A DNA stretch of 64,000 bases from an uncultured Clostridium sp. Its GTDB lineage: Bacteria; Bacillota; Clostridia; TANB77; CAG-508. Where the stretch lies: positions 17,271-81,270 of the forward strand of contig CABPCL010000002.1 of the NCBI GenBank assembly GCA_902406115.1, read 5' to 3'. Below, one piece after another: positions 38,395 through 38,489 of the stretch. The position numbers were made by a program, and so were the translations under genes. Under the pieces are notes generated by a model. That model had not been told where the DNA came from, did not search any database, and saw only the letters and a program-made list of their open reading frames with translations. How positions within the stretch are numbered: position 1 is the first letter of the stretch; every line of letters starts with the position of its first letter.

Positions 38395-38489
38395 ATTAAT
38401 CATACATTTATTTTTATTTATAACTTACTGTCGGATTTTCAATCCTCCAAACTGCGCGTTATTGCATAAAAATAAATGTATGATTAATG
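38395..38489. mobile_element. 95-bp MITE-like element or large operator: perfect 22-bp inverted repeats flanking a 51-bp core
   Basis: ATTAATCATACATTTATTTTTA (38395-38416) is the exact reverse complement of 38468-38489. The element sits ~35 nt upstream of the fhs RBS. Confidence 0.4.

What the first reader, a model, noticed from the sequence alone, without database searches (positions are those of the whole stretch)
38395..38489. 95-bp element with perfect 22-bp terminal inverted repeats in the fhs leader
Seen: ATTAATCATACATTTATTTTTA and its exact reverse complement flank a 51-bp core (ttataacttactgtcggattttcaatcctccaaactgcgcgttattgcat), ~35 nt upstream of the fhs RBS. A perfect 22-bp inverted repeat is far beyond chance in 64 kb. 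It resembles a MITE (miniature inverted-repeat transposable element). Alternatively it could form a long-range RNA stem that sequesters the leader. It is also adjacent to an Rpn-family transposase-like gene ~3 kb away.
Basis: seen in the sequence. Interest (0 to 1): 0.5.

Follow-up and report, generated by a model that had tools for sequence, protein, structure and literature searches.

The report
Single-copy long hairpin upstream of fhs
The perfect inverted repeat in front of the formate-tetrahydrofolate ligase gene is real, but it is a one-off, species-specific long stem-loop that grew out of a smaller hairpin already present in related bacteria, not a jumping element, so it is a fairly ordinary gene-spacer structure.

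Summary
The inverted repeat is real: 23-nt perfect arms (38395-38417 / 38466-38488) around a 48-nt core, 94 bp in all. The longest perfect repeat in 200 simulated windows was 19 nt. fhs lies on the minus strand, and the element ends 35 nt before its ATG and 23 nt before the RBS.

It is not a MITE. It occurs at one locus only, in the window and in all metagenome contigs of the species. It has no target-site duplication, its flanks continue the palindrome, and it has no plasmid or phage match. The base of the stem and the downstream flank align to a 13-bp hairpin at the same place in a sister species, and all three differing stem positions keep pairing.

No inverted-core haplotype and no nearby recombinase were found, so it is not an evident inverton. 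No Rfam family matches and there is no U-tract.

Related species keep nusB-xseA-xseB-DUF212-fhs. The DUF212-fhs spacer is either 16-39 nt or holds a different long palindrome. One strain carries a double substitution that perfects the apical stem, as expected of templated mutation.

Best reading: a lineage-specific quasi-palindromic stem-loop, extended by replication template switching. It is transcribed in the fhs leader or intercistronic RNA and probably acts on processing or stability; that function is inferred. Interest is low to moderate.

The parts
38466..38488 (-). Promoter-distal (5') arm of the inverted repeat in fhs orientation: ATTAATCATACATTTATTTTTAT
   Evidence: (I1, 23 nt, 100% complementary). 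A T->C variant at 38483 in haplotypes L013 and L037 gives one C.A mismatch. A candidate -10 hexamer, TACATT (38480-38475), lies inside this arm.
38418..38465 (-). 48-nt core, GCAATAACGCGCAGTTTGGAGGATTGAAAATCCGACAGTAAGTTATAA. It is itself an imperfect palindrome that continues the stem: AUAAC/GUUAU, GC/GU, UG/CA and GGAUU/AAUCC, with a GAA loop.
   Evidence: Folds. It is 40% G+C, against 28% for the window. It is the most variable part within the species, with 5 of 48 sites variable. No Rfam match.
38395..38417 (-). Promoter-proximal (3') arm: ATAAAAATAAATGTATGATTAAT
   Evidence: Together with the downstream flank it aligns to the loop A-run plus 3' arm plus flank of the sister-species hairpin in L004 (shuffle p = 0.013).
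38387..38494 (-). Full predicted stem-loop, including a 5-bp outer extension (CUAUA 38494-38490 pairing with UAUAG 38391-38387)
   Evidence: Sense RNA -35.5 kcal/mol against antisense -28.7 kcal/mol. The 171-nt leader folds with z = -5.9.
38364..38371 (-). fhs ribosome-binding site AAAGGAGG, left unpaired by the hairpin
   Evidence: Sequence; folds.
36698..38359 (-). fhs (formate-tetrahydrofolate ligase, 553 aa), the gene downstream of the element
   Evidence: Pfam PF01268.
38599..39036 (-). DUF212 (divergent PAP2) gene, the last gene of the nusB-xseA-x-xseB-DUF212 string upstream of the element. No terminator is predicted between it and the element.
38475..38549 (-). Two weak sigma-70-like promoter matches: TTGATA-17-TAATAT at 38549-38521 and TTGACT-17-TACATT at 38503-38475. 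Both score 9 of 12 and are not above the shuffle expectation.
   Evidence: 3 found, 5.0 expected; 97 found, 78 expected in 12.5 kb. Promoter calls carry little information in this AT-rich DNA.

Best explanation
The element is a single-copy, species-specific, long quasi-palindromic stem-loop in the spacer between the DUF212 gene and fhs. It is not a mobile element.

An ancestral short hairpin already occupied this position. In this lineage the stem was extended into the former loop and made perfect over 23 bp. The most plausible route is replication template switching (quasi-palindrome correction), which copies one arm from the other and keeps the arms identical without any transposase or recombinase.

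In this genus fhs follows the nusB-xseA-xseB-DUF212 string directly, and nothing terminator-like precedes the element. The palindrome is therefore transcribed in the intercistronic or leader RNA, where it folds into a hairpin of about 108 nt (about -35 kcal/mol). That hairpin has no U-tract and leaves the RBS free.

Its most likely role is structural rather than sequence-specific. It would be a processing or stability determinant: a double-strand-specific or RNase Y-type cleavage signal and/or a 5' protective stem. Such a determinant would uncouple the abundance of fhs mRNA from that of the weakly expressed upstream genes.

Shown:
- The structure itself, its single-copy status and its fixation in the species.
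- Homology of the stem base with a sister-species hairpin.
- Pairing-preserving changes and a templated double mutation.

Inferred:
- The template-switch origin.
- That the element is transcribed.
- The RNA processing/stability function.
For: Single locus:
- No other copy in the 64-kb window or in any fetched locus.
- The exact 22-mer arm in JGI metagenomes hits only 3 contigs of this species, all at fhs. The other 5 hits share nothing beyond the 22-mer.
- No plasmid or phage match.

Fixed in the species:
- All 8 distinct haplotypes carry it in the same orientation.

Ancestral base:
- The window 3' arm plus flank aligns with the L004 loop, 3' arm and flank: AAAAATAAATGTATGATTAATTATTATAGAAAT against AAAAATACATGT--CTAATT-TTATAGAAT (p = 0.013).
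- The 3 stem positions that differ between the two species all keep pairing: A-U to G-C twice, and U-A to G.U once (read).

Templated mutation:
- Haplotype L046 carries an adjacent GA->TC change at 38447-38446. It turns UGGAGGAUU/AAUCCGACA into the perfect UGUCGGAUU/AAUCCGACA.
- L012's A->G at 38421 gives a U.G pair on the sense strand.
- Published mechanism: PMC8794818 and PMC5941160.

Sequence-independent constraint:
- Within the species, 5 of 48 core sites vary, against 1 of 46 arm sites and 6 of 151 in the rest of the spacer.

Operon context:
- The DUF212-fhs spacer is only 16, 33 and 39 nt in three sister species (L008, L044, L040).
- No terminator is predicted upstream of the element.

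RNA level:
- The sense-strand fold is more stable than the antisense fold in 6 of 7 independent hairpins at this locus across species.
- G.U pairs fall on the sense strand in L004 and L041.

Recurrence:
- Five other species carry their own long palindrome in the same spacer.

Precedent:
- Intergenic stem-loops direct cleavage and set segment stability in a clostridial operon (PMC10311766).
Against: - No transcript data exist, so it is not shown that the hairpin is in RNA. One candidate promoter (TTGACT-17-TACATT) would start transcription at about 38468 and leave the 5' arm out of the transcript.
- The L013/L037 polymorphism creates a C.A mismatch on the sense strand but a G.U pair on the antisense strand.
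- One sister palindrome (L039) folds better as antisense.
- The homology to the L004 hairpin rests on a short AT-rich alignment with modest shuffle p-values of 0.013 and 0.033.
- Perfect arms could be maintained by mutation bias alone, so no function at all is required.
- The copy-number test relied on exact 20-22-mers, so diverged copies elsewhere in the genome would have been missed. The species' own genome was not found in the reference-genome scan.
Confidence: 0.5

Rival explanations
1. It is a neutral by-product. The palindrome is a mutational artefact of template switching at a hairpin-prone AT-rich spacer. It is tolerated because it harms nothing and it has no regulatory role.
For: - The core is the most variable part of the spacer.
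- One arm carries a mismatch in 2 of 8 haplotypes.
- Three sister species have only a 16-39 nt spacer and do without any hairpin.
- The palindromes in the other species are unrelated in sequence.
- Template switching can create and perfect stems without selection (PMC8794818, PMC5941160).
Against: - Unusually long palindromes recur at exactly this spacer in 6 of 9 species. They are the top inverted repeat of the locus in L039, L041 and L042.
- The sense strand is favoured in 6 of 7 independent hairpins.
- Three species (window, L004, L042) place the stem base about 22-23 nt from the RBS.
Confidence: 0.25
2. It is a DNA operator. The two identical arms are binding sites for a repressor that loops the fhs promoter region, with the upstream arm overlapping a -10 element.
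For: - The candidate promoter TTGACT-17-TACATT (38503-38475) overlaps the 5' arm.
- Palindromes also overlap promoter-like matches in L004 and L045.
- The 12-mer TATACATTAATC occurs twice in the spacer, and a third, degenerate arm copy lies at 38534-38549.
Against: - Promoter-like matches are not enriched over shuffles.
- The arm sequence is not conserved between species, whereas an orthologous regulator's site would be.
- The arm motif is not enriched elsewhere in the window: 8 matches against 10.5 expected.
- The centre-to-centre distance of 71 bp is not an integral number of helical turns.
- No regulator gene is linked to the locus.
Confidence: 0.1
3. It is a partial transcription terminator or attenuator at the end of the nusB-xseAB-DUF212 operon that limits read-through into fhs.
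For: - It lies 110 nt after the DUF212 stop codon, as does the L004 hairpin, which is followed by UUUUAU.
- L045 has a canonical terminator in the same spacer.
- This lineage uses long AT-rich hairpins with T-tracts as terminators, for example after fhs.
Against: - The stem is followed by UAUUAUAG, not a U-tract, and it has only 2 G-C pairs in 23. The terminator scan finds nothing there.
- The sister palindromes in L039, L041 and L042 are followed by A-rich sequence.
Confidence: 0.08
4. It is a MITE or other non-autonomous mobile element inserted upstream of fhs.
For: - The terminal inverted repeats are perfect and 23 bp long.
- The total size of 94 bp is in the MITE range.
- The core has a higher G+C content than the surrounding spacer.
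- Sister species lack this sequence.
Against: - One locus only in every data set searched.
- No direct repeat flanks the arms, and the flanks continue the palindrome.
- The stem base and its flank are homologous to a resident hairpin in L004.
- There is no transposase nearby; the PDDEXK_2 ORF is a truncated fragment.
Confidence: 0.04
5. It is an inverton. The 23-bp repeats are crossover sites for a site-specific recombinase that flips the 48-bp core, switching fhs expression on and off.
For: - Identical inverted repeats lie immediately upstream of a gene.
- The repeat length is typical of invertons, most of which are shorter than 300 bp (PMC11602134).
Against: - All 8 distinct haplotypes from independent assemblies have the core in the same orientation, and their point variants are in register.
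- No promoter-like match lies within the core.
- No recombinase lies within +-5 kb.
- A 48-bp invertible segment is very short for synapsis.
- The core is itself palindromic, so flipping it would change little.
Confidence: 0.03

Closest known systems
[quoted passage not shown]
   Same: It is a long stem-loop in the spacer between co-oriented genes of a Firmicute gene string. It has no U-tract and leaves the downstream RBS free. Its action would depend on structure rather than sequence.
   Different: No cleavage or stability data exist for this element. The stem is unusually long and perfectly paired (23 bp, almost all A-U). The published type I stem-loops need G+C-rich stems.
Hairpins created or perfected by replication template switching / quasi-palindrome correction (PMC8794818, PMC5941160, PMC8604942)
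   Same: The arms are perfect although the spacer is variable. A multi-base change perfects a stem in a single step (L046). Paired changes separate the species. The stem has been extended into a former loop.
   Different: The switch event itself is not reconstructed here, because too few close relatives were available. No spacer inversion was seen.
Correia repeat-enclosed elements of Neisseria (PMC2649163)
   Same: Both are elements of about 100-150 bp with terminal inverted repeats, sitting in 5' leaders. When transcribed they form a hairpin that RNase III can cleave, which changes expression of the neighbouring gene.
   Different: Correia elements are present in hundreds of copies, have TA duplications and carry an IHF site. 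This element is single-copy, has no duplication and is unrelated in sequence.
REP / REPIN elements
   Same: Both are intergenic palindromes lying between genes of one operon. The GGGGAC palindromes in sister species L039, L041 and L045 do look REPIN-like: they are inverted pairs of a unit that is itself a hairpin, and they occur at more than one locus.
   Different: The window element shares no sequence with that family. Its arms are not themselves hairpins. It is not repeated.
Invertible promoters (invertons; PMC11602134)
   Same: Both have identical inverted repeats of about 20-30 bp flanking a short segment just upstream of a gene.
   Different: There is no second orientation, no internal promoter and no recombinase. 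The 48-bp segment is far shorter than characterised switches.

Membership tests
MITE | Terminal inverted repeats | tested here: met
   23-nt perfect arms.
MITE | Multiple copies in the genome | tested here: not met
   There is no second copy in the 64-kb window or in any fetched locus. In the metagenome collection the exact arm occurs only at the fhs locus of this species, in 3 contigs. The reference genomes gave only single chance hits. The limit of this test is that it needed exact 20-22-mers, and no closed genome of the species was available.
MITE | Target-site duplication flanking the repeats | tested here: not met
   The flanks are ...CTATAC| and |TATTATAG.... They are inverted-symmetric and extend the stem by 5 bp, rather than forming a direct repeat.
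MITE | Clean empty site in relatives / presence-absence polymorphism | tested here: not met
   All 8 haplotypes of the species carry the element. The sister species L004 has a shorter homologous hairpin at the site, not an empty site.
Inverton | Both orientations of the enclosed segment present in populations | tested here: not met
   The core has the same orientation in 8 distinct haplotypes from independent assemblies. Read-level data could not be examined.
Inverton | Promoter inside the invertible segment | tested here: not met
   No promoter-like match lies within 38418-38465. This is a consensus scan only.
Inverton | Site-specific recombinase (linked or global) | tested here: inconclusive
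   There is none within +-5 kb. A distant, global recombinase cannot be excluded.
Intrinsic terminator | Stable stem followed by a U-tract | tested here: not met
   The stem is followed by UAUUAUAG, and the terminator scan finds none in 38200-38800.
Known riboswitch or other Rfam family (for example ZTP, THF, T-box) | Match to a curated covariance model | tested here: not met
   At E <= 10 there were only spurious plant miRNA-precursor hits, caused by the long hairpin. Nothing was found in the sister spacers either.
REP/REPIN | Repeated palindromic unit, often in inverted pairs, at many intergenic sites | tested here: not met
   The window element is single-copy and lacks the GGGGAC unit found in sister species.
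Processing/stability stem-loop (SRPS type) | Stem-loop in a transcribed spacer between genes of one transcription unit | tested here: inconclusive
   Co-orientation, 16-39-nt spacers in three sister species and the absence of an upstream terminator all argue for co-transcription. No transcript data are available.
Processing/stability stem-loop (SRPS type) | Endonucleolytic cleavage at or near the stem and different stability of the flanking segments | not testable with these tools
   This needs RNA 5'/3'-end mapping and decay measurements.
Template-switch-derived hairpin | Multi-base changes that are explained by copying from the opposite arm | tested here: met
   L046 has an adjacent GA->TC change that makes a 9-bp apical stem perfect. 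It is derived within the L012/L033/L046 haplotype group. Between L039 and L041, 6 of 6 arm differences are mirrored in the other arm.

The most novel reading that the evidence does not exclude
In this uncultured low-G+C gut Firmicute genus, the DUF212-fhs spacer may be a selected 'hairpin slot'. Six of nine species keep an exceptionally long, near-perfect palindrome there. The sequences are unrelated: an AT-rich hairpin in the window species, a 23-bp hairpin in L042, and split REPIN-like GGGGAC units in L039 and L041 that bracket the whole spacer from stop codon to RBS. Under this reading the palindromes are convergently maintained because a double-stranded RNA structure of 20 bp or more is needed to cut fhs mRNA free from the housekeeping operon and so set the level of a central one-carbon enzyme. 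Template switching would supply the perfect stems.
Probability: 0.2. Interest if true: 0.5.

Novelty: new member of a known kind. Interest (0 to 1): 0.25.

Why it matters
If the reading is right, this corrects a tempting misannotation: 'perfect terminal inverted repeats, therefore a MITE'. It also gives a clean natural example of a long perfect stem growing out of a small resident hairpin by templated mutation, with a within-species double substitution caught in the act.

The recurrence of long, unrelated palindromes in the same spacer of a conserved gene string would be a convenient comparative system. It could be used to ask whether intercistronic double-stranded RNA is selected to uncouple a highly expressed metabolic gene (fhs) from housekeeping genes.

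As a single element in a single species, however, it is an ordinary kind of feature.

Tried and rejected
- **Known RNA families.** An Rfam search at E <= 10 over 38000-39000 gave only artefactual miRNA-precursor hits. Nothing turned up in five sister loci either, so no ZTP, THF or T-box element is present.
- **tRNA resemblance.** The core GAGGATTGAAAATCC resembles a tRNA-Phe(GAA) anticodon stem-loop, and GCGCAGTTTGGAG resembles a D-arm (from memory). ARAGORN and the Rfam tRNA model do not support this, and I treat it as chance.
- **PurBox.** AAAATCCGACAGT matches AWWWCCGAACWWT only poorly, and no inverted partner exists. Rejected; this comparison was done by eye and from memory only.
- **Leader peptide or type I toxin.** The spacer holds no credible small ORF. 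The GGAGG inside the core is lost in haplotype L046.
- **attC, dif or oriT-like sites.** No matching end motifs and no linked integrase or relaxase were seen (by eye).
- **Organism identity.**
  - The reference-genome scan with the 20-mer arm returned only 17 chance hits and no locus with both arms.
  - Cluster look-up gave no names.
  - The best plasmid-collection protein match was 60% identical.
  - The organism remains an unnamed gut Firmicute with 28% G+C.
- **Promoter scans.** Matches are at or below the shuffle expectation in this AT-rich DNA, so they cannot place the transcription start.

Full report
**1. Observation**

The window holds a perfect inverted repeat with arms at 38395-38417 and 38466-38488. 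Each arm is 23 nt, and 48 nt lie between them.

The 23-mer, allowing up to 3 mismatches, occurs nowhere else in the window, against 0.01 matches expected from shuffles. In 200 first-order Markov simulations of the 64-kb window, the longest perfect inverted repeat with a 3-100-nt spacer averaged 12.4 nt and never exceeded 19 nt. The next longest perfect inverted repeats in the real window are 16 nt.

The structure is present in independent assemblies from many samples, made with different assemblers. It is therefore not an assembly artefact.

**2. Setting**

fhs is on the minus strand at 36698-38359 (Pfam FTHFS). In fhs orientation the order is as follows.

| Feature | Coordinates |
|---|---|
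| DUF212 gene | ends 38599 |
| Spacer to the element | 110 nt |
| 5' arm | 38488-38466 |
| Core | 38465-38418 |
| 3' arm | 38417-38395 |
| Gap between 3' arm and RBS | 23 nt |
| RBS AAAGGAGG | 38371-38364 |
| fhs ATG | 38359 |

These positions are read.

All genes from about 44400 down to 33400 run in the same direction and are tightly packed, except for this 239-nt spacer. The string contains:
- fmt, Asp23-family genes, nusB, xseA, a 163-aa ORF, xseB and DUF212;
- then fhs;
- then a split SleB-like hydrolase, a truncated PDDEXK_2 fragment and a MiaB-like gene.

The window has 28% G+C. It also carries an OLE RNA and a tmRNA, so the organism is an anaerobic low-G+C Firmicute. It could not be named.

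**3. Structure**

As sense RNA the element folds into one long hairpin. Reading from the base to the tip, it consists of:
- a 5-bp outer extension (38494-38490 pairing with 38391-38387);
- a 1x3 internal loop;
- 23 perfect pairs, only two of them G-C;
- an imperfect apical part, AUAAC/GUUAU, GC/GU, UG/CA and GGAUU/AAUCC, closed by a GAA loop.

The energy is -35.5 kcal/mol for the 108-nt hairpin, against -28.7 kcal/mol for its antisense. The 171-nt leader folds with z = -5.9 against shuffles. The hairpin does not pair with the RBS or the ATG. It is followed by UAUUAUAG rather than a U-tract, and no terminator is predicted. No Rfam family matches apart from spurious miRNA-precursor models that are attracted by any long hairpin.

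**4. Is it mobile?**

No.
- There is no second copy, even a partial one, in the window or in any of the 46 fetched loci.
- The scan of JGI metagenome contigs with the exact 22-mer arm gave eight loci. Three (L033, L034, L037; 28-29% G+C) are the fhs locus of this same species. The other five have different base composition and share nothing beyond the 22-mer.
- The scan of one genome per GTDB species with the 20-mer arm gave 17 single hits in unrelated phyla. None had both arms.
- Plasmid and phage collections gave nothing meaningful.
- The flanks are not a direct repeat. They continue the palindrome.
It is absent from that position in sister species.

**5. Is it invertible?**

Nothing supports this.
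- Eight distinct haplotypes of the species all have the core in the same orientation, with their point variants in register.
- No promoter-like match lies inside the core.
- No recombinase lies within 5 kb.
- The 48-bp core is itself a quasi-palindrome, so flipping it would change little.

**6. Comparison with relatives**

Fhs proteins that are 79-82% identical fall into at least eight further species groups. All sampled loci keep nusB-xseA-x-xseB-DUF212-fhs. The DUF212-fhs spacer differs sharply between them.

| Locus | Spacer (nt) | Content of the spacer |
|---|---|---|
| L008 | 16 | none |
| L044 | 33 | none |
| L040 | 39 | none |
| L042 | 96 | almost entirely one palindrome; 23-bp stem with a 4-nt loop |
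| L004 | 119 | 13-bp hairpin |
| L041 | 139 | 30-31-nt arms, one U.G pair, enclosing about 56 nt |
| L045 | 173 | a canonical terminator plus a 14-bp hairpin next to the RBS |
| window | 239 | the element |
| L039 | 272 | 32-nt perfect arms enclosing about 180 nt, with nested inverted repeats |

Two conclusions follow. First, fhs is basically operonic with the upstream genes in this genus. Second, the spacer, whenever it is long, holds a long palindrome, and these palindromes are unrelated in sequence. In L039, L041 and L042 that palindrome is the strongest inverted repeat of the whole 5-8 kb locus.

**7. Origin**

The window's 3' arm and downstream flank align with the loop A-run, 3' arm and flank of the L004 hairpin: AAAAATAAATGTATGATTAATTATTATAGAAAT against AAAAATACATGT--CTAATT-TTATAGAAT. 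The shuffle p-value is 0.013 for the 3' side and 0.033 for the 5' side.

The outer 13 bp of the window stem correspond to the L004 stem. Three positions differ and all keep pairing: two A-U to G-C exchanges and one U-A to G.U, with the wobble on the sense strand.

The inner 10 bp of the window stem pair with what is loop sequence in L004. The stem therefore appears to have been extended into the former loop.

Within the species, 5 of 48 core sites vary, against 1 of 46 arm sites and 6 of 151 in the rest of the spacer. One haplotype (L046) carries an adjacent double change, GA->TC at 38447-38446. That haplotype is derived within its group, and the change makes the apical stem a perfect 9-bp duplex, UGUCGGAUU/AAUCCGACA. 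This is the signature of templated (quasi-palindrome) mutation, not of two independent hits.

The same process is visible between L039 and L041. Their arms differ at six positions, and all six differences are mirrored in the opposite arm.

Replication template switching is documented to create perfect stems in a single event and to repair existing ones (PMC8794818). It is also documented to convert imperfect inverted repeats to perfect ones in bacteria (PMC5941160). I therefore attribute the perfection of the 23-bp arms to this mechanism rather than to transposition or site-specific recombination. This is an inference: the switch event itself was not reconstructed.

**8. Function**

This part is inferred. 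Three points indicate that the element will be transcribed:
- the genes are co-oriented;
- three sister species have only 16-39 nt between DUF212 and fhs;
- nothing terminator-like lies upstream of the element.

The sense strand folds more stably than the antisense in 6 of 7 independent hairpins at this locus (one-sided sign test about 0.06). The G.U pairs of L004 and L041 fall on the sense strand. The hairpin neither terminates transcription nor masks the RBS. Three species place its base about 22-23 nt before the RBS.

The best-fitting known mechanism is selective RNA processing and stabilisation. In this mechanism an intercistronic stem-loop directs endonucleolytic cleavage and/or protects the new 5' end, so that the downstream segment accumulates independently of the upstream genes. 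This has been shown for the cip-cel operon of a Clostridium relative (PMC10311766). From my own knowledge it also applies to cggR-gapA in B. subtilis. A 23-bp perfect duplex is also a textbook RNase III substrate, as with transcribed Correia elements (PMC2649163).

My confidence in each step is as follows.

| Claim | Confidence |
|---|---|
| Non-mobile, single-copy hairpin | about 0.8 |
| Template-switch origin | about 0.5 |
| Processing/stability role | about 0.3 |
| No function at all | about 0.25 |

**9. Counter-evidence and limits**

- There are no transcript data.
- One weak promoter match (TTGACT-17-TACATT, 38503-38475) would start transcription at the inner end of the 5' arm, so that no hairpin could form in RNA. 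However, promoter-like matches are no more frequent than in shuffles.
- The L013/L037 variant (T->C at 38483) gives C.A on the sense strand and G.U on the antisense strand.
- L039 folds better as antisense.
- The copy-number tests needed exact 20-22-mers, and no closed genome of the species was available.
- Homology with L004 rests on short AT-rich alignments.

**10. Verdict**

The MITE interpretation is not supported, and the 'RNA stem' alternative is partly supported, although the stem does not sequester the RBS.

The element is a new member of a known kind, an intergenic quasi-palindromic stem-loop. The one mildly unusual aspect is that long, unrelated palindromes recur in the same spacer across the genus. 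Interest is 0.25.

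Noticed in passing
L039 2729-2760 / 2947-2978; L041 2868-2898 / 2954-2983; L045 4765-4837: Sister species carry a 'GGGGAC' palindromic unit, for example TGTGCAAAA-GGGGACGGGCTTA-TTTTGCACA. Each arm is itself a hairpin, its stem covaries between species, and it occurs as inverted pairs. In L039 and L041 the two units bracket the whole DUF212-fhs spacer from stop codon to RBS. In L045 they form a simple hairpin at a different locus. This looks like a REP/REPIN-like repeat family. It is absent from the window.
   Followed up: partly
L046 (same species), corresponding to window 38447-38446: An adjacent double substitution, GA->TC, converts the imperfect apical stem of the element into a perfect 9-bp duplex. 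This is a within-species example of templated (quasi-palindrome) mutation.
   Followed up: yes
window 22783-23382 (-): A full-length OLE (ornate large extremophilic) RNA, 379 bits, in what appears to be a gut-associated Firmicute with 28% G+C.
   Followed up: no
window 16861-17217 (+) and 17320-17395 (+): A tmRNA with the tag peptide ADNRELAYAA, followed by tRNA-Trp(CCA).
   Followed up: no
window 36261-36578 (-) and 35870-36274 (-): The SleB-like cell-wall hydrolase downstream of fhs is split into two overlapping ORFs, one with PG_binding_1 (105 aa) and one with Hydrolase_2 (134 aa). Sister species have one gene of 232-264 aa. The split is present in all contigs of this species, so it is a fixed frameshift or pseudogene.
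   Followed up: partly
window 34999-35580 (-): The 'Rpn-family' ORF is a truncated PD-(D/E)XK fragment covering only profile positions 134-223 of 229. A perfect consensus promoter match, TTGACA-17-TATAAT, lies inside it at 35394-35366.
   Followed up: partly
window 38418-38465 (-): The core contains GAGGATTGAAAATCC, which resembles a tRNA-Phe(GAA) anticodon stem-loop, and GCGCAGTTTGGAG, which resembles a D-arm. Neither ARAGORN nor the Rfam tRNA model supports a tRNA relationship. The core has 40% G+C in a spacer that is otherwise much more AT-rich, and its source is unknown.
   Followed up: partly
window 38482-38493, 38566-38577 and 38534-38549 (-): The 12-mer TATACATTAATC occurs twice as a direct repeat in the spacer, 84 bp apart. 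A third, degenerate copy of the arm, TTGATAATGCATTTAT, lies further upstream. This suggests that the long spacer grew by local duplication.
   Followed up: partly
window about 36590-36655 (-); L042 4669-4736; L039 4690-4748: A long AT-rich hairpin followed by a T-tract (ACCATTTTTGGATAAAA...AAGAAAGTGGTGTTTTTATTTT) lies just after fhs. It is conserved in sister species and is the probable fhs terminator.
   Followed up: no
Genome-contig scan: No representative genome in the GTDB-based collection contains both arms. Yet the identical Fhs protein is recorded from NCBI assemblies. Either the species representative differs in the arms or the contig breaks at this palindrome.
   Followed up: no
window 42901-43887 (-): Methionyl-tRNA formyltransferase (fmt), which consumes the 10-formyl-THF made by Fhs, heads the same co-oriented gene string about 4.5 kb upstream of fhs.
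   Followed up: no
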